Below, in pieces: positions 11,886 through 17,391 of a stretch of DNA of 32,000 bases. How positions within the stretch are numbered: the stretch's first letter is position 1; the number at the start of each line of letters is the position of its first letter. The stretch is from Alkanindiges illinoisensis DSM 15370 (GTDB lineage: Bacteria > Pseudomonadota > Gammaproteobacteria > Pseudomonadales > Moraxellaceae), in the NCBI RefSeq assembly GCF_000619845.1, contig NZ_KK211037.1, forward strand, positions 365,941-397,940, in the 5' to 3' direction. The position numbers and the translations under genes were made by a program. The notes beneath the pieces were generated by a model, which saw only the letters and a program-made list of their open reading frames with translations, did not search any database and was not told where the DNA came from.

Positions 11886-12860
11886 GTGGCTTGCCATCTT
11901 TATCTATACCAAGTCCTAAGGGGGACTAATAATCTGGTCTTTCCAAATAGCCGGGGACAGGTGGAATGGTATACCGATCTATTACGGCGTCTATGTGAAA
12001 AGGAAGGTATTCCTAGTCAGTTCTGGGCGCATCATGGCAATTTATCCAAGGAATATCGAGAAGATGCTGAAAAAGCTTTAAAAGATAAGTCCCAGAATGC
12101 TACAGCAATTTGTACTACTACCCTTGAGCTTGGCATTGATATTGGACATGTCAAAAGTATCTGTCAAATTGGTTCTCCACCATCGGTTGCCAGTCTCAGA
12201 CAGCGCCTTGGCCGTTCGGGAAGGCGTAAGGACGAGCCTGCTATATTAAGAGGATATTGTATAGAATGTGAGCTAACACCTGATTCAGGTCTCTCAGATC
12301 GTATTCGGGAAGGACTGCTACAGATGATAGCTATGATTCAACTATTGCTTGAAGGCTGGTTTGAACCACCGCGGATTAAGGGTCTACATTATTCAACACT
12401 GGTGCAGCAGATACTATCGGTTATTGCCCAGAAAGGCGGAGCTACAGCCGCTGAGCTATGGCATACATTGATTCATCAAGGGCCTTTTGAGGGGATAGTA
12501 CGAGAAGACTTTCTTTCATTACTACGGGGAATGGGCGAAGAGCTGTTACTCATGCAGGAAAGTACAGGGCTTTTATTGCATGGTGAGAAGGGTGAAAATC
12601 TCGTTAATCACTATGATTTTTTTGCAGCATTTGTTTCAACGGAGGAGTTTAGACTGATTGTTGAGGGAAAAGCACTTGGTTCTCTACCCATTAAGCATAT
12701 TCTTATCCCTGGGCAATACCTGATTTTTGCAGGAAGGCGCTGGCGTGTCTTGGATGTTGATGTAGAGAAAAAAGTAATATCGGTGAAAGCTGACAAAGGT
12801 AGAGCACCACCTAACACCCGCCTATTTATAGTTCAGGTGAGGTTGGTAGATCTTTTCTAG
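11886..12860 (+). pseudogene. Fragment of a large Lhr-like DEAD/DEAH-box helicase (RecA2 plus WH/associated domains only)
   Basis: The fragment contains helicase motifs IV-VI only (LVFPNSR, TTTLELGIDIG, QRLGRSGRR) and a downstream domain (LLQMIAMIQLLLEGWFEPP). The ATP-binding RecA1 half (motifs I-III) is missing. An in-frame stop lies at 11850-11852 just upstream, and the reading frame ends abruptly after ...KADKGRAPP. Confidence 0.65.
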
Positions 12861-13156
12861 CCCTTGCATTACCAAACGGTTAATCAGCAAGACATCATCG
12901 GTGGCATGCGGTAGGTTAATAAGCAGGAACGGATGACAATAGGGCTGGACAAAGCGGTTGGTTTTAATGCTAATGCCGACCCTACCACACAGTAGTTTTT
13001 GTTTACTTAACTTGGCCAACCATGCGTGAACTGGACGTATTGACAGGCTGTTCTAATCATAAATTTTAAGTATTGTGCTTAGGTGAGCGTATTGACCTGC
13101 TGGTTGTTGTTTAGGAAACGTGAGGTAGTAATCGGCATTTTTTATTTTCAGATTTA

Positions 13157-13480
13157 ATGTTGTGTACTTGTTATTCTCCATTGTTTAAAACATATACACG
13201 GTATACTCGTGACTCTCAGGATAAATTAAGAAAAAAGCAAATGAACAGAGTTTTAATGAATATTATTGATGTGATAAATAATAGTGATGGGACCAAAGAT
13301 CAAATCTTTATGTATCAAGAGAAAGAAGTGAGAATAAGTACAAAAGGATTTAAGTCACTGGTCAATACTGAAATAAGTTATTTTAATCTTAAAGAAGAAC
13401 GCGTTACGCCTTATTTAGAGGGTTTCCGGAAGTTCGCTATCGGTAGTACCACACACTACAGTACTAAAAGCCTTCATTAA
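13157..13480 (+). CDS. Hypothetical protein (alternative start ATG 13241)
   Basis: This is an open frame in AT-rich DNA, followed 14 nt later by a good terminator. I see no recognisable motif and only a weak RBS. Confidence 0.3.
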   Translation: MLCTCYSPLFKTYTRYTRDSQDKLRKKQMNRVLMNIIDVINNSDGTKDQIFMYQEKEVRISTKGFKSLVNTEISYFNLKEERVTPYLEGFRKFAIGSTTHYSTKSLH

Positions 13481-13493
13481 AAAATAACTTTAT

Positions 13494-13521
13494 AAAAAGC
13501 CGCCCAATCAGACGGCTTTTT
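13494..13521 (+). terminator. Rho-independent terminator
   Basis: The sequence AAAAAGCCG-cccaatcaga-CGGCTTTTT forms a stem with a trailing T-run. The A-tract upstream would make it bidirectional. Confidence 0.7.
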
Positions 13522-13933
13522 ATTGGCTTAATAGTTTCTCTGGGTATTGGCAGGCCAATAGGAATTTTATCGGGGTAGTACACATGGATCGTGACTACGG
13601 AATGTACTTTTTAGTAGGAACATTAGTCTTATTATTACTATATTTATTTATATAGCTGACCAATTTTCTTTGGACAATTTACATTACTTTTAAATAAAAG
13701 ATTGTATAACTGGATTTATAGGCGTATAAATACTAAACCGAAAGGTTATTGGTTAAAGTCCATGACTGATTTCAGGTTAAATACTCTATAAAATAATTAT
13801 AGCTTTATTAAGTCTCTCGTTCCGCAGTTTTATTTATAATTCTCCGTTTTCATAAGATTTTAGCTTCATAAATTATTTTTTGAGTGATCTATATGGATTA
13901 AATTCATATTAATTTTTCAAATAGGATTATAAA

Positions 13934-14143
13934 ATGTCTACTACTGCTACCGGCGTTGTTAAATGGTTTAATGAAACTAAAGGTTTTGGATTTATTCAAC
14001 AAGAATCTGGACCAGATTTATTTGCCCATTATAGTGAAATTCAAAGTAATAGTTTTAAGACTCTTCATGAGGGACAGCAAGTACAGTTTACTATTACCGA
14101 GGGTCAAAAAGGCCCTCAGGCAAGTAAAATTTACCCTCTTTAA
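13934..14143 (+). CDS. Cold-shock protein, CspA family
   Basis: The 69-aa product is a cold-shock domain with RNP1/RNP2-type motifs ([24 protein letters not shown]). An AGGA sits 7 nt before the ATG, and a long AT-rich leader lies upstream. Confidence 0.9.
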
Positions 14144-14198
14144 ATCATCTTTTAACTGATAGGTAGGCCAATACGTCTATCTATTCTTTTTAAGTTTA

Positions 14199-14229
14199 AA
14201 ACCCTTACTTAAATGGTAGGGGTTTTTTA
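14199..14229 (+). terminator. Rho-independent terminator after csp
   Basis: The stem pairs CCCTTAC (14202-14208) with GTAGGGG (14216-14222) and is followed by T6. Confidence 0.65.
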
Positions 14230-14408
14230 TAGCTTAAATTCAAAACTATATTTTTAGGATATTTAGCGGGCAATATATTAATACTAAAATTGAAGACCTA
14301 ATCAATGTGTATTATAACAATAGTAAGAAATGCCATCAGTGCAAGCCTTGTATTAATACTTCTATCCTGTAGCATTAATCAGATAATCCCTCAATCAAGG
14401 CAACCCTA

Positions 14409-14828
14409 ATGGTTGTTCACAAAGCTGTAGGGCGATTTGCTGTTAAGCAGAAAATTGATTTCAAATACTATTTTGAAATCACAGGATTTGAAAAAGTCTC
14501 AGGTACCGGCAGCATTATTATTGATAGTAAAACCTGGACACAAGAAAGTATTAAAAAATCAATTAATAAGTTTGTTTTAGCACAAGTAAATGAATTTTTA
14601 GTAAATAAAAACATTACTCAGACTTCCAACTTTGGAGTAGATACCGGTATTGAAATACTAGCGGTGCATGAGCCTACGATAGCGCAGCGTCTTACTGAGC
14701 ATGGTGGTAAGGCTCAGGTTACCAGCCAAAAGTACATTGTGTTTATAGTAGGGCTTGCCATAGTAATCATGTCCTTTCTTGTTCTATGTATGAATCACTA
14801 TTCTTTCGCGTTTAACTCTTTCAAGTGA
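14409..14828 (+). CDS. Hypothetical tail-anchored membrane protein
   Basis: The 139-aa product has a soluble N-terminal part and a single C-terminal TM helix (KYIVFIVGLAIVIMSFLVLCMNHY). That tail resembles the C-terminus of the next gene. Confidence 0.45.
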   Translation: MVVHKAVGRFAVKQKIDFKYYFEITGFEKVSGTGSIIIDSKTWTQESIKKSINKFVLAQVNEFLVNKNITQTSNFGVDTGIEILAVHEPTIAQRLTEHGGKAQVTSQKYIVFIVGLAIVIMSFLVLCMNHYSFAFNSFK

Positions 14829-15085
14829 AATAAAGTTAGATAATAACTTGACGTAACCAATATCTTACTTAAAAAATAGACGAGTAAATGTTTTAATAAT
14901 ATAGATGATATTAAATCTATCAGTATCTAATTAATATTACAGTTAATAAATTTATTAGAAAAATTGTTCTATCTTTAAACTGATATGTCATAAAAAATCT
15001 TTAGAGAAGTTACGAACTACTCGTAAAAACAAGTGTATATTACAAAGTGATAAAAAATCTACCTTATTATTATATCGAGTATTTA

Positions 15086-15694
15086 ATGCCGCATCCTACG
15101 AGATTCTCGTATGCAAGCACATCCACTGCTTTACCTTCTACAATTAAGGATCATCTGGTTAGTATAACTAGAAATGCTGAAACTAATACCGTCCGTGGAG
15201 AAATGGCCGGTATTTTGATTTACGGGAATAAATGTTTTTTTCATTGCATTGAAGCACCTGCCTCAACAATTAACAGAATTTATAACGAAGCTGTTCAGAA
15301 TCCACTTGACCAACGGTTTGAATTATTAAAACGTGAGTTAATTTCAGAGCGTTATTTTAAAGGCTGGGAAATTAAATATTTTGTTCGGGAAAAAGCACTA
15401 CAAGAGTTTTTTCTTGAGCATTATGGAAAGCATGAATTTGATCCTTACATGCTTGAAGGAAATCGCCTTGATGCCTTTATTAAGCTACTGGCACGTCCGA
15501 AGCATGAGCGATTGTCAGGATTTCCTTGCCCTACAGAGGCTTCCATATTCGCAGGCAGTTCAAGTTCAGGCCGATTGCTAAATACCCATTACATTGGCTT
15601 TATGATAATGGTAGCCATCCTTATTTTTTTATTTTACCTCATGATGGATCACTACATGGGCTGGGATACTTTTCAGAGCATATATCGCTCATAA
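15086..15694 (+). CDS. BLUF-like domain protein with a C-terminal transmembrane anchor (non-canonical; Gln replaced by His)
   Basis: The domain follows the BLUF pattern: RFSYAS (Tyr9), GILIYGNKCFFHCIEA, DQRF, FKGWEIKYF (Trp94). I chose the start at ATG 15086 (MPHPTRFSYAS) over the track's GTG at 15047. The C-terminal TM is YIGFMIMVAILIFLFYLMMDHY. Confidence 0.75.
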   Translation: MPHPTRFSYASTSTALPSTIKDHLVSITRNAETNTVRGEMAGILIYGNKCFFHCIEAPASTINRIYNEAVQNPLDQRFELLKRELISERYFKGWEIKYFVREKALQEFFLEHYGKHEFDPYMLEGNRLDAFIKLLARPKHERLSGFPCPTEASIFAGSSSSGRLLNTHYIGFMIMVAILIFLFYLMMDHYMGWDTFQSIYRS

Positions 15695-15732
15695 AATGAA
15701 AACTCCTAAAATAAGGGTATAGGGATTTTGAC

Positions 15733-16025
15733 CATATCCTTATCAAATCCAAATTAAGTCGCCGTATTGCATTACTTGAGGAGCGCTTGAATATTCATTT
15801 AATTTAGCGGTCATCCCGACAGTTTAAGGCTATCGGAACCGGACAGCAGTGTTATTAATATTGTTAGGCAATGCTTGCTGAAGCCAAGGCTGGACAAGAG
15901 TTTATCGATTCCCATATTGATGAACCACAGGGTCTTATTCGGATGAGTTGTCCCCACCATTGCTGTATTCCCAGATCAAGGATATGCTTGCATTACTCCT
16001 TAACAACCCCCTTTAAATTCCTAAG
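15733..16025 (+). pseudogene. LysR-family transcriptional regulator remnant (truncated and frameshifted)
   Basis: One frame reads ...KLSRRIALLEERLNIHLI*, the LysR HTH recognition-helix region, and is interrupted by stops. A second frame gives RSSRQFKAIGTGQQCY, then AMLAEAKAGQEFIDSHIDEPQGLIRMSCP, the typical linker leading into the co-inducer domain. A further frameshift follows (PPLLYSQIKDMLALLLNNPL*). The N-terminal 30 aa or so and most of the effector domain are missing. Confidence 0.6.
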
Positions 16026-16040
16026 CCCCAAAGTTTTTAA

Positions 16041-16337
16041 TCATCGCGCTTGGCTGTAAGGGAATGGGTAATCGTGCAGCTCTAGGGTAATCAATAGTTG
16101 CCAGATAAAATCCTGCGTGGTTGGCGACATTTGCAGGGTAGCAAACACAGGCGTGCTGGCACCTTTAATATCAATTCGAATGTTCCTGCTTGAGTGTTCC
16201 TGCTGTGATTTTACCTCTATATTGGTTTTTGCTTCTGTACGGCATGCATCAAGCCCCAACATTATGCAGACAATCGATAAGCCCGTGCGGATAAGGGCTT
16301 GACAATTTTTAATGAAACATTTGATACTTTGCGCCAA
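16041..16337 (-). CDS. Secreted cyclophilin-like-fold protein, probably 3'-truncated
   Basis: A signal-like N-terminus is followed by IRIDIKGASTPVFATLQMSPTTQDFIWQLLITLELHDYP. This resembles the first half of the small cyclophilin-like proteins (pattern I.I..G....A.L.DN.TA..F...LP). The ORF stops where the second half would begin, abutting the LysR remnant. Confidence 0.4.
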   Translation of the reverse strand: MAQSIKCFIKNCQALIRTGLSIVCIMLGLDACRTEAKTNIEVKSQQEHSSRNIRIDIKGASTPVFATLQMSPTTQDFIWQLLITLELHDYPFPYSQAR

Positions 16338-16386
16338 CCGTGTCCGTCAAGAGATTAGCTGCTTGGGCAAACCATTACACCGCAAG

Positions 16387-17391
16387 ATGATTCCAGAGAC
16401 TTATGTGCAATTGCTATTTGAGTATCTGGAAGCGCAGGGCCATGACCCTGAAAGCGTACTGGGTGAACCATGGCCTGTACCTGATGTGCAAGGACTTGGC
16501 GGTATGCCTGTAGCGCACTGGGATCAGCTTTTAGAAACTGCAAAACAGCATTTGAATGATCCCCTTATTGGTTTGCATGTAGGACAAACCATTACTGCCC
16601 GGCATCTGGGCATTCTGGGTTCGGTGCTGCTGGCCTGCGATAATTTTGGCGCACTCATGCAGCGTTTTGAGCGTTATCAGCGGCTGATTTTTGATGTTGT
16701 GCCTGCAAGCATTGATATTGGGCCAGCGTATATTGAATTAACCTGGGATATTCAGGACTATCAAGCTGGGGGCTTGGTGGATGAAACAGGACGGACGGTG
16801 ATGGTGCAGTTTTGCCGTAGCCTGATTCGGGGCACTACTTCATTGCTGGCCGTGCATTTTATTCATGAGCAGCCCGCTGACATTAAGCCCTATGAAGACT
16901 ATTTTGGTTGTCCGGTGTTATTTGAGCAGCCTAAACCGCTGTTGCGTTTTGGCCTGAATATGCTGAGCTTGCCATTAAAAAGCCCTGATCCTGCATTGAT
17001 TGCCGTGCTGGATCAGCATGCTGATCAGTTGTTGGCCAAATTGCCTCAGGTAGAAGAAATCGTTGAGCAGATAAGGAAGCATATCGCCTATTTGCTGCAT
17101 CAGGGTGAACCTGATATTGCACAACTGGCAGACTTGCTGTGTTGTTCACGCCGCACCTTGCAACGACGCTTGATGGAAGCAGGAACCAGTTTTCGGCATG
17201 AATTAAATACGGTAAGGCACGAGCTGGCACGATCTTATTTACAGGACCCCAGATTGCAAATTGTCGACATTGCCTTATTGCTGGGTTATTCCGAACATAG
17301 TGCATTCACCCGTGCCTACAAGGAGTGGACAGGCCACACACCTCAGCAGGAGCGTGAATCACATGTCAAAGATAGTCTTAAAAACATGTGA
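16387..17391 (+). CDS. AraC-family transcriptional regulator (N-terminal AraC-binding-like domain)
   Basis: The C-terminus carries a double HTH (SRRTLQRRLMEAGTSFRHEL...IVDIALLLGYSEHSAFTRAYKEWTGHTPQQ). I moved the start to ATG 16387 (MIPETYVQLLFEYLEAQG), which also removes the overlap with the divergent gene. Confidence 0.85.
   Translation: MIPETYVQLLFEYLEAQGHDPESVLGEPWPVPDVQGLGGMPVAHWDQLLETAKQHLNDPLIGLHVGQTITARHLGILGSVLLACDNFGALMQRFERYQRLIFDVVPASIDIGPAYIELTWDIQDYQAGGLVDETGRTVMVQFCRSLIRGTTSLLAVHFIHEQPADIKPYEDYFGCPVLFEQPKPLLRFGLNMLSLPLKSPDPALIAVLDQHADQLLAKLPQVEEIVEQIRKHIAYLLHQGEPDIAQLADLLCCSRRTLQRRLMEAGTSFRHELNTVRHELARSYLQDPRLQIVDIALLLGYSEHSAFTRAYKEWTGHTPQQERESHVKDSLKNM

What the first reader, a model, noticed from the sequence alone, without database searches (positions are those of the whole stretch)
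14409..15694. Membrane-tethered BLUF-like protein lacking the photoactive Gln and Met, paired with a second protein that shares its tail anchor
The 202-aa product of 15086-15694 aligns to short BLUF photoreceptors with a constant offset of +2. As I recall the Acinetobacter BlsA residues Tyr7/Gln51/Trp92/Met94, the equivalents here are Tyr9/His53/Trp94/Ile96. The electron-donating Tyr and the Trp are retained. The glutamine whose rotation or tautomerisation drives the BLUF photocycle is His (codon CAT at 15242-15244; FFHCIEA against the family's F.Q.LEG). The signalling Met is Ile. The protein also ends in a hydrophobic helix (YIGFMIMVAILIFLFYLMMDHY), whereas known short BLUF proteins are soluble. 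The upstream 139-aa ORF has an unrelated soluble part but a clearly related tail (KYIVFIVGLAIVIMSFLVLCMNHY). By eye, roughly 11 of 24 positions are identical, including the terminal (N/D)HY. This suggests a shared membrane-anchor module, or that the two proteins associate in the membrane. Three readings are possible: a flavin-binding domain repurposed as a light-independent (for example redox) sensor, a variant photocycle, or a decaying gene.
Basis: partly seen in the sequence, partly recalled or inferred. Interest (0 to 1): 0.65.

Follow-up and report, generated by a model that had tools for sequence, protein, structure and literature searches.

The report
Membrane-anchored BLUF domain without photoactive residues
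An Alkanindiges bacterium encodes a membrane-anchored relative of the blue-light sensor BlsA in which the residues that drive the light reaction have been replaced as a set yet kept under selection, next to a small membrane-anchored partner protein, so it is probably a repurposed rather than a broken light sensor.

Summary
Window 15086-15694 encodes a 202-aa protein with a significant BLUF domain (Pfam 48.7 bits). Its closest solved relative is a BLUF protein whose numbering matches Acinetobacter BlsA. It has Tyr9, His53 for the photoactive Gln, Trp94, Ile96 for Met, and one C-terminal transmembrane helix.

Three points change the picture:
- The membrane tail is not special. Of the 150 best relatives, 72 have one, and 57 of those keep Gln and Met.
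- Q-to-H marks one clade, named members of which are Alkanindiges or Moraxellaceae. The clade also lost the Asp-x-Arg-His motif, the Gly of LEG and, in this window, the flavin-contacting Asn. Fold residues, Tyr and Trp are kept. dN/dS is 0.13-0.27, and both His codons occur.
- The 139-aa upstream ORF is a real gene for a tail-anchored protein. It lies next to this BLUF type in four lineages, in either gene order. Its tail resembles BLUF tails more than decoys do.

Decay is rejected. My best reading is a membrane-tethered BLUF-derived adaptor without the canonical photocycle, working with the partner protein. A variant photocycle remains possible, and only spectroscopy can decide. I rate it a new variant of a known kind, of moderate interest.

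The parts
15086..15694 (+). Gene for the 202-aa tail-anchored BLUF-derived protein. The conserved start is MP(H/Q)PTRFSYA; the GTG at 15047 is not supported by homologues.
   Evidence: dN/dS is 0.13-0.27.
15101..15373 (+). BLUF domain, residues 6-96. It holds Tyr9 (15110-15112), His53 in place of Gln (15242-15244), Trp94 (15365-15367) and Ile96 in place of Met (15371-15373). Further changes are Thr35 for the canonical Asn, Ala57 for Gly, and Asn72-Pro-Leu74-Asp75 for Asp-x-Arg-His.
   Evidence: Pfam PF04940 at 48.7 bits. PDB alignments. Column comparison with 125 canonical relatives.
15383..15493 (+). BlsA-type C-terminal helical extension, residues 100-136. It includes the F-(D/N)-P-Y motif; F118 and P120 are conserved in all relatives.
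   Evidence: The alignment to 6w6z runs to residue 136. F118 and P120 are conserved at 99-100% in both the canonical and the His clade. Helices are predicted at 102-113 and 126-135.
15590..15646 (+). Transmembrane tail anchor of the BLUF protein, residues about 169-187. A poorly conserved linker (137-167) precedes it and a 13-15-residue extracytoplasmic end follows.
   Evidence: Kyte-Doolittle maximum 2.55 at residue 169. Helix predicted at 167-201 with pLDDT about 80. A tail is present in P0001-P0009, the full-length relatives aligned with the window protein.
14409..14828 (+). Gene for the 139-aa tail-anchored partner protein (ORF1 family). It has a soluble beta-beta-alpha-beta-beta domain (about residues 10-92), a linker and a TM helix (about residues 109-129, nt 14733-14795).
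   Evidence: No Pfam, NCBIfam or PADLOC family matches. The family has about 10 clusters. It is adjacent to the His-type BLUF gene in four lineages. dN/dS is 0.2-0.48. AlphaFold2 mean pLDDT is 73.5. Foldseek finds nothing at E<0.01.
15034..15041 (+). Candidate extended -10 promoter element, TGTATATT, about 45-52 nt upstream of the BLUF start codon.
   Evidence: TGTATA(A/T)T occupies a similar position (about 41-56 nt upstream of the start) upstream of the orthologues in L004, L005, L001, L002, L013, L006 and L010. This is inferred from sequence, not tested.
15010..15026 (.). Palindrome TTACGA-N5-TCGTAA just upstream of the -10 element. It is a candidate operator.
   Evidence: L004 has TTATGA-N5-TCATAA, changed in both arms so that the palindrome is kept. 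L005 has one mismatch. Only three sequences are available.

Best explanation
The 202-aa protein is a tail-anchored member of the BlsA lineage of short BLUF proteins, and its domain faces the cytoplasm. The residues that carry out BLUF photochemistry have been replaced as a set:
- Gln to His
- Met to Ile
- the flavin-contacting Asn to Thr
- Asp-x-Arg-His to Asn-Pro-Leu-Asp
- LEG to IEA

The fold-determining residues, the Tyr and the Trp are preserved under purifying selection.

I infer that it can no longer run the canonical Gln-dependent, red-shifting photocycle. I propose that it works as a membrane-tethered adaptor or pseudo-photoreceptor. It would use the BLUF surface and the BlsA-type C-terminal helices to bind partner proteins at the inner membrane. 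It would act together with the adjacent tail-anchored ORF1-family protein, and possibly by pairing with a canonical BLUF domain.

Shown here:
- family membership
- the substitutions
- the membrane tail
- purifying selection
- conserved adjacency to ORF1

Inferred only:
- N-in topology
- loss of the photocycle
- physical association with ORF1
- the adaptor role
For: **Membership and lineage**
- Pfam BLUF scores 48.7 bits.
- The alignment to 6w6z extends through the C-terminal helices to residue 136.
- F118 and P120 of the F-(D/N)-P-Y motif are conserved at 99-100% in relatives.

**Coordinated loss of photochemical residues**
- In 125 canonical relatives these columns are conserved at 98-100%: N35, Q53, G57, D72, R74, H75 and M96. 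The window protein has T, H, A, N, L, D and I there.
- It keeps Y9, S11, G42, L44, F51, E56, F91 and W94.
- In the BlsA model, N33, Q51 and D70 are the residues that contact FAD (PMC6695109).
- In PixD, the Asp69-Arg71 pair tunes flavin charge transfer (PMC10448171).

**The clade and selection**
- The His-bearing proteins form one clade in a neighbour-joining tree.
- dN/dS is 0.13-0.27.
- His is encoded by both CAT and CAC.

**Link to a canonical BLUF**
- A natural 393-aa fusion in A. illinoisensis (P0014/P0182, WP_134245956.1, 14 cluster members) joins a canonical soluble BLUF to a His-type TM-tailed BLUF.

**Partner protein**
- An ORF1 homologue lies upstream of the BLUF gene in window/L005/L004 and downstream in L001/L013/L006-L009.
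- All ORF1-family members are tail-anchored.
- Their tails resemble BLUF tails more than decoys do.

**Precedent**
- BlsA signals by binding regulators such as Fur (abstract of PMC5955987).
Against: - No flavin-binding or photochemical data exist, and Gln-to-His has not been characterised in any paper I could find.
- Position 53 is restricted to His or Gln across the close clade, with two nested Gln reversions (P0004 and P0008). Tyr9 and Trp94 are invariant. This looks like a pocket that is still in use.
- The OaPAC D67N mutant, which changes the equivalent Asp to Asn, still binds flavin and photocycles (PMC10448171).
- An Asn remains at position 34, next to the canonical column. The pairwise alignment with the BlsA-like chain 6w6z aligns that Asn with its Asn33.
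- The AlphaFold2 model of the BLUF protein is poor (mean pLDDT 53.5), so the pocket could not be inspected.
- ORF1 is absent next to the related BLUF genes in L003 and L015, and is not seen on the short contigs L010-L012.
- The spacers between the two genes are 170-260 bp, and the BLUF gene seems to have its own promoter. The link between them is adjacency, not an operon.
Confidence: 0.5

Rival explanations
1. It is still a flavin-binding blue-light receptor with a variant photocycle. His53 replaces Gln as the hydrogen-bond or proton relay between Tyr9 and the flavin. The signal passes to the membrane-anchored C-terminal part and to ORF1.
For: - Tyr9, Trp94 and the hydrophobic core are invariant.
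- Position 53 accepts only His or Gln in the close clade, and His is kept across synonymous codon changes.
- His arose independently in otherwise canonical relatives that keep DPRH and LEG (P0030; P0144, sequence).
- The OaPAC D67N mutant keeps its flavin and has an altered photocycle (PMC10448171).
- Asn34 could substitute for the canonical Asn.
Against: - Seven columns that are 98-100% conserved in 125 canonical relatives are changed together. They include all three residues that contact FAD in the BlsA model and the Arg that stabilises charge transfer.
- More distant clade members have no Asn at 34 or 35, for example P0017 and P0018, whose sequences are.
- All known BLUF photocycles need the Gln (general knowledge of AppA Q63 and PixD Q50 mutants).
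Confidence: 0.3
2. The BLUF fold has been retuned to sense something other than light. Candidates are redox state through a bound flavin, pH through His53, or a different small ligand. The signal is reported at the membrane.
For: - The pocket residues are replaced by a new set that is itself conserved. FFHC(I/L)EAP and NPLD are nearly invariant in the close clade.
- Selection is purifying.
Against: There is no direct evidence for any ligand. The new motif is conserved only in the close clade and varies in the wider His clade (SPYT, STLN, YPHH).
Confidence: 0.12
3. The gene is decaying: a former photoreceptor that is drifting.
For: - The canonical residues are lost.
- One relative, P0045, has an aberrant C-terminus compared with P0038. 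This could be a frameshift.
- The gene lies in a low-GC island, 30-35% against about 48%.
Against: - Intact orthologues of 194-202 aa span 48-98% identity.
- dN/dS is 0.13-0.27 in all pairs.
- Fifty-seven positions are invariant.
- A promoter-like element is conserved upstream.
Confidence: 0.02
4. The adjacency of ORF1 and the BLUF gene, and the likeness of their tails, are incidental. The two genes merely ride on the same mobile island, and the tails look alike because all single-pass anchors do.
For: - BLASTP finds no similarity between the two proteins.
- Same-locus tail pairs score no better than cross-locus pairs. The L001 and L006 ORF1 tails are at chance level.
- There is no DNA-level similarity to the best-matching tail.
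- ORF1 and the BLUF gene have different divergence histories: window against L004 gives dS 0.25 for ORF1 and 0.93 for BLUF.
- The loci look mobile. Neighbours include HigBA, a polyvalent LPD3/ParB protein, ImmA/IrrE and a 746-aa ORF that I read by eye as a type IA topoisomerase (not searched against any library).
Against: - The pair is kept in two opposite gene orders across BLUF divergence down to 59% identity.
- Real tail comparisons beat reversed decoys: 20 against 1 at score >=45, and 8 against 0 at >=50. The best score is 79, reached by 0 of 20000 shuffles.
Confidence: 0.2

Closest known systems
BlsA of Acinetobacter baumannii, a short BLUF photoreceptor (matched here to PDB 6w6z/6w72 by residue numbering)
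   Same: - It is the best solved-structure match (E 7.6e-11).
- The alignment covers the BLUF core and the C-terminal helices up to residue 136.
- Tyr, Trp and the F-N/D-P motif are conserved.
- Both come from the family Moraxellaceae.
   Different: - BlsA is soluble, 156 aa long, and has Gln51, Met94, Asn33 and Asp70-x-Arg-His.
- The window protein has His, Ile, Thr (with an Asn one position earlier) and Asn-Pro-Leu-Asp at those positions.
- It also has a linker and a transmembrane tail.
Uncharacterised TM-tailed short BLUF proteins with canonical residues, annotated only as 'BLUF domain-containing protein' (for example NCT66117.1 from a Rhodanobacteraceae MAG and RZK09938.1)
   Same: - They share the architecture: BLUF core, BlsA-type helices, linker and one C-terminal TM helix, 180-220 aa in all.
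- 57 of the best 150 relatives are of this kind.
- Tail motifs such as (K/N)-Y-(I/V)-(I/V) recur, as in P0024 and P0032.
   Different: They keep Gln, Met, Asn and DxRH, so they are probably true photoreceptors. The window protein belongs to the separate His clade.
The tandem BLUF protein of Alkanindiges illinoisensis (WP_134245956.1, 393 aa)
   Same: Its C-terminal half is a His-type BLUF (YYLHCIEAP, WTLKYF) with a TM tail, in the same clade as the window protein.
   Different: It is fused to an N-terminal canonical soluble BLUF (FFQCIEG, DPRH, WAMKYV). It sits at a chromosomal lptD-surA locus without an ORF1 homologue.
Photosensor domains that lack their photoactive residue, such as LOV domains without the adduct-forming Cys or the first BLUF domain of Euglena PAC (recalled from memory, not tested here)
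   Same: The concept is the same: a light-sensor fold is kept under selection after losing the residue thought essential for its photochemistry.
   Different: They belong to a different family or a different architecture. None of the examples I know is tail-anchored or paired with a small membrane protein.

Membership tests
BLUF domain (Pfam PF04940) | Significant match to the family profile over the whole domain | tested here: met
   48.7 bits against a gathering cut-off of 25. Residues 6-96 match profile positions 3-91 of 92. Twenty-two PDB BLUF-related chains match at E<1.
BLUF domain (Pfam PF04940) | beta-alpha-beta-beta-alpha-beta-beta fold | tested here: inconclusive
   The AlphaFold2 secondary structure is E7-10, H18-33, E40-47, E51-58, H59-70, E79-90, E95-101, which fits the fold. 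Mean pLDDT is only 53.5, so the model is not reliable.
Photoactive BLUF receptor | Electron- and proton-donating Tyr (BlsA Tyr7) | tested here: met
   Tyr9 is invariant in the clade and its codon is TAT in all loci.
Photoactive BLUF receptor | Photoactive Gln (BlsA Gln51, AppA Gln63) | tested here: not met
   The residue is His53. The column is 100% Gln in 125 canonical relatives.
Photoactive BLUF receptor | Signalling Met on strand beta5 (BlsA Met94) and the neighbouring Trp | tested here: not met
   Trp94 is present, but Met is replaced by Ile96 (ATT in all nine loci). The column is 100% Met in canonical relatives.
Photoactive BLUF receptor | Polar flavin contacts: Asn (BlsA N33) and the Asp-x-Arg-His motif (BlsA D70-H73) | tested here: not met
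   The profile alignment gives Thr35 (with Asn34 adjacent), Asn72, Leu74 and Asp75. Canonical relatives have N at 98%, D at 99%, R at 98% and H at 98% in these columns. The contacts come from the BlsA model in PMC6695109.
Photoactive BLUF receptor | Binds FAD or FMN and shows a light-induced red shift of about 10 nm | not testable with these tools
   This needs a purified protein and UV-visible spectroscopy.
Tail-anchored inner-membrane protein | A single TM helix within about 35 residues of the C-terminus, no signal peptide, and a cytoplasmic N-terminal domain | tested here: met
   Hydropathy maxima of 2.55 and 3.09 occur only at the C-terminal segments of both proteins. Helices are predicted at 167-201 and 105-138. 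The N-in orientation is inferred from basic residues before the helix and the lack of an N-terminal hydrophobic segment. It was not tested.

The most novel reading that the evidence does not exclude
The His-type, tail-anchored BLUF proteins of Alkanindiges and related Moraxellaceae may be a new functional class of BLUF-fold proteins. One possibility is a flavin photoreceptor that uses a Tyr-His rather than a Tyr-Gln relay. That would be a photocycle never yet described, with natural His-to-Gln revertants (P0004, P0008) available as built-in controls. The other possibility is a flavin-free membrane anchor that recruits a canonical BLUF and a small tail-anchored partner into a light-signalling complex at the inner membrane, as the natural canonical+His-type fusion suggests.
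Probability: 0.3. Interest if true: 0.75.

Novelty: new variant of a known kind. Interest (0 to 1): 0.55.

Why it matters
All mechanistic work on BLUF rests on the Tyr-Gln-Met triad. Here is a natural clade that has replaced Gln, Met and the polar flavin contacts and yet remains under purifying selection.

- If it still photocycles, it gives the field a test case for how indispensable the Gln is.
- If it does not, it shows what a BLUF fold does when it is no longer a light sensor.
- Close relatives that carry Gln again (P0004, P0008) and a natural fusion to a canonical BLUF (WP_134245956.1) provide ready-made comparisons.

Separately, the survey shows that about half of the nearest BlsA-like relatives are membrane-anchored. 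I found no paper describing this architecture (full-text searches). It suggests that much short-BLUF signalling happens at the membrane. Such proteins might also serve as starting points for membrane-targeted optogenetic tools.

Tried and rejected
**Searches that added little**
- A single-protein scan of genome contigs found nothing. The alignment-based scan found only two Alkanindiges loci.
- NCBIfam and PADLOC gave no hit for either protein. PHROGs gave only an unnamed BLUF-like family. A defence-system reading therefore has no support.
- Rfam found nothing at 12500-16500. The generic promoter and terminator scan was no better than shuffles.
- The plasmid search found only soluble Acinetobacter and Psychrobacter BLUFs at about 30% identity. 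It also found one TM-less ORF1-like protein on a Burkholderia glumae plasmid.

**Structure**
- The AlphaFold2 model of the BLUF protein, built from a 10-sequence alignment, was too poor (pLDDT 53.5) to inspect the pocket or to use for fold search.
- The ORF1 model (pLDDT 73.5) had no Foldseek match at E<0.01 in PDB or BFVD. The ORF1 fold stays unassigned.

**Tail comparison**
- An HMM of the ORF1 tails found nothing in BLUF relatives or decoys; the profile is too short. I used Smith-Waterman scores with decoys instead.
- A DNA-level comparison of the ORF1 tail with the P0024 tail was at chance level, so recent exchange is rejected.
- Co-evolution of tails within a locus is rejected: same-locus pairs score no higher than cross-locus pairs.

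**Literature**
- Searches for Gln-to-His BLUF mutants, membrane-anchored BLUF proteins and degenerate BLUF domains found nothing relevant.
Full report
**1. What is in the sequence**

ORF listing and direct reading confirm two same-strand ORFs.
- ORF1 is at 14409-14828 and encodes 139 aa.
- ORF2 is at 15086-15694 and encodes 202 aa.
- A 257-bp AT-rich spacer separates them.

ORF2 matches Pfam BLUF (PF04940) at 48.7 bits, E 8e-13, over residues 6-96. The gathering cut-off is 25. ORF1 matches nothing in Pfam, NCBIfam or PADLOC.

The best solved-structure relative of ORF2 is 6w6z, a 156-aa BLUF protein, at E 7.6e-11. Its residue numbers (F32, N33, Q51, D70, W92) agree with those used for A. baumannii BlsA in PMC6695109. 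The alignment runs from residue 8 to residue 136, so it passes through the BLUF core and into the BlsA-type C-terminal helices.

That alignment places Tyr9/His53/Trp94/Ile96 opposite Tyr7/Gln51/Trp92/Met94. The AppA and Tll0078 alignments put their Gln opposite His53 as well.

Both proteins have one strongly hydrophobic C-terminal segment and no other. AlphaFold2 predicts those segments as long helices.

- (N/D)HY is not the terminus. Eight and twelve further residues follow in ORF1 and ORF2 respectively.
- The +2 offset holds at the four key residues, not at every position.

**2. Organism and setting**

Housekeeping proteins of the window fall into 90%-identity clusters with proteins of Alkanindiges hydrocarboniclasticus and A. 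illinoisensis. The window is therefore from an Alkanindiges species (Moraxellaceae).

The flanks are chromosomal: FimV, asd, a lipid A acyltransferase, an ABC-F protein, an AraC regulator and an SDR. The stretch 13000-15500 is a low-GC island, 30-35% against about 48%.

Related loci elsewhere lie beside HigB/HigA pairs, a TetR regulator and a 746-aa ORF that I read by eye as a type IA topoisomerase (not searched against any library). Others lie beside a polyvalent LPD3/ParB protein and ImmA/IrrE. The module appears to move.

**3. Relatives of the BLUF protein**

A word-indexed search found nine clusters at 98-48% identity. All are 194-202 aa and all have a hydrophobic tail.

An exhaustive profile search found 1140 proteins at E<1e-3. 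I aligned the best 150 to the profile:
- 72 have a C-terminal hydrophobic tail.
- 57 of those 72 keep both Gln and Met.
- 13 have His at the Gln column, and 10 of those are TM-tailed.

So the membrane tail is a common architecture of BlsA-like proteins and is independent of the Q-to-H change. I found no paper describing it. Canonical TM-tailed members are annotated only as 'BLUF domain-containing protein'.

A 2013 survey stated that Alkanindiges has no BLUF genes (PMC3554667). The sequences found here show that it does.

**4. The His clade**

In a neighbour-joining tree the His-bearing proteins form one clade. The two Gln-bearing close relatives, P0004 and P0008, are nested inside it. They are therefore reversions, one nucleotide away (CAC/CAT to CAG). 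One otherwise canonical relative, P0030, acquired His independently.

I compared the window protein with 125 canonical relatives, column by column.
- Retained: Y9, S11, G42, L44, F51, E56, F91, W94, F118, P120.
- Replaced, at columns that are 98-100% conserved in canonical proteins: N35 to T (an Asn remains at 34), Q53 to H, G57 to A, D72 to N, R74 to L, H75 to D, M96 to I.

The BlsA model names N33, Q51 and D70 as the FAD contacts (PMC6695109). The PixD Asp69-Arg71 pair tunes flavin charge transfer. The OaPAC D67N mutant still binds flavin but has an altered photocycle (PMC10448171).

The pattern is a coordinated replacement of the photochemical residues with the fold kept. In the close clade the replacement motifs, FFHC(I/L)EAP and NPLD, are themselves nearly invariant.

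**5. Not decay**

- Nei-Gojobori dN/dS for the BLUF gene is 0.13-0.27 in all pairs where dS could be estimated.
- His is encoded by CAT in the window and L003, and by CAC in L005, L004, L001, L006, L013 and L010.
- Lengths are conserved.
- One relative, P0045, has an odd C-terminus compared with P0038. This may be a frameshift. It is the only such case I saw.

**6. The partner**

The ORF1 family is small, about ten clusters, all of them tail-anchored. A profile search of every fetched locus shows where ORF1 homologues lie:
- Immediately upstream of the BLUF gene in the window, L005 and L004.
- Immediately downstream in L001, L013 and L006-L009.
- Absent in L003, where a second, convergent His-type TM-BLUF sits instead, and in L015.
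- Not seen in L010-L012, which are short contigs.
- Unknown in L002, where the contig ends.

Adjacency kept in two gene orders is better evidence of a functional link than inherited synteny alone.

The genes are not tightly coupled. Spacers are 170-260 bp. The BLUF gene has its own conserved extended -10-like element, TGTATA(A/T)T, about 41-56 nt upstream of the start in several lineages.

ORF1 has dN/dS of 0.2-0.48. Its soluble domain is predicted as beta-beta-alpha-beta-beta, with a mean pLDDT of 73.5. It has no structural neighbour in PDB or BFVD. A TM-less relative of the soluble domain lies on a Burkholderia glumae plasmid beside IS66 elements.

**7. The tails**

The window pair scores 45, with 11 identities in 23 columns. 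Layout-preserving shuffles give 27.7 +/- 4.8, so p is about 0.004.

I compared all ORF1-family tails with the tails of 76 TM-tailed BLUF relatives, and with the same tails reversed as decoys.

| Score threshold | Real comparisons | Decoy comparisons |
|---|---|---|
| >=45 | 20 | 1 |
| >=50 | 8 | 0 |

The best match is the window ORF1 tail against P0024, a Gln-bearing TM-BLUF at an lptD-surA locus. The score is 79, and none of 20000 shuffles reaches it. The aligned segments are VTSQKYIVFIVGLAIVIMSFLVLCMNHYSFA and VKGQKYVIFMIGVALVLFGLLYLCLPNFGLA.

The limits of this result:
- There is no DNA-level similarity.
- Same-locus pairs score no higher than cross-locus pairs.
- The Alkanindiges-type ORF1 tails, which end right after the helix, are at chance level.

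A motif (K/N)-Y-(I/L/V)-(I/L/V) sits at the cytoplasmic edge. The resemblance is not a specific match between the two neighbours.

**8. Mechanism**

I commit to the following reading. The protein is a tail-anchored BLUF-derived domain, facing the cytoplasm, that cannot run the canonical Gln-dependent photocycle. It acts as a membrane-tethered adaptor together with ORF1.

- BlsA itself signals by binding regulators such as Fur (abstract of PMC5955987). Sequestering a partner at the membrane is therefore a natural extension. This step is inference.
- The natural fusion of a canonical soluble BLUF to a His-type TM-BLUF in A. illinoisensis (393 aa, 14 cluster members) suggests that His-type domains work beside a true photoreceptor domain.

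The main rival is a variant photocycle with a Tyr-His relay. It is not excluded. Position 53 tolerates only His or Gln in the close clade, Tyr and Trp are invariant, and D-to-N alone does not remove the flavin.

**9. Verdict**

This is a real, conserved feature. It is a member of the BLUF fold family, but it fails three of the sequence-level tests for a photoactive BLUF receptor. I rate it a new variant of a known kind, of moderate interest.

The finding becomes directly testable by spectroscopy on one small soluble domain, with natural revertants as controls.

Noticed in passing
window 13241-13480 (+); L015 4535-4771; L016 215-451: A roughly 79-aa ORF (MNRVLMNIIDVINNSDG...) lies 1.6 kb upstream of the BLUF gene. 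It has a 50%-identical homologue 230 bp upstream of a distant His-type TM-BLUF (P0016, a Moraxellaceae MAG). It may be a third recurrent neighbour.
   Followed up: partly
window 15010-15041: The palindrome TTACGA-N5-TCGTAA lies next to an extended -10-like TGTATATT upstream of the BLUF gene. L004 has both arms changed (TTATGA...TCATAA), which keeps the palindrome. It is a candidate operator.
   Followed up: partly
L017 5001-6182 (P0014/P0182, WP_134245956.1, A. illinoisensis): A 393-aa natural fusion joins a canonical soluble BLUF to a His-type TM-tailed BLUF. It sits at an lptD-surA locus. A 122-aa multi-pass membrane protein is encoded 12 bp downstream.
   Followed up: partly
L003 6521-6945; L017 4263-4834: Pairs of paralogous ORFs of about 63-66 aa as called (the second L017 copy extends to 90 aa from an upstream TTG), ending in (K/R/Q)W(Y/F)LL(N/S/K/G), lie next to TM-tailed BLUF genes in two different loci. 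Their function is unknown.
   Followed up: no
L018 4290-4770 (-): Two tail-anchored proteins of 57-59 aa, each with CxxC...CxxC motifs, lie divergently upstream of the TM-tailed BLUF P0024. This is another case of small tail-anchored neighbours.
   Followed up: no
L003 5625-6215 (-): A second, convergent His-type TM-tailed BLUF paralogue (196 aa; YIFHCIEVP, WDVKYF) lies directly after P0007. A GGDEF protein is encoded nearby.
   Followed up: no
window 13000-15500: A low-GC island (30-35% against about 48% in the flanks) holds the 79-aa ORF, a cspA-like gene (13934-14143), ORF1 and the BLUF gene. HigB/HigA pairs flank the homologous module in L001, L002, L013 and L015.
   Followed up: partly
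window 11886-12860 (+): This ORF matches only the Helicase_C domain and starts at GTG. The L005 counterpart is called as 431 aa. The window copy may be truncated, or its start may be miscalled.
   Followed up: no
window 14409-15694 vs L004 4397-5603: Synonymous divergence between the same two loci is 0.25 for ORF1 but 0.93 for the BLUF gene. This suggests recombination within the pair. P0008 (L002) looks chimeric between P0007-like and P0005-like halves.
   Followed up: no
L014 2938-3309 (Burkholderia glumae plasmid NZ_CP100242.1): A 123-aa protein resembles the soluble domain of ORF1 (33% identity, E 8e-5) but has no TM helix. It lies beside IS66 transposases and a DNA methylase.
   Followed up: partly
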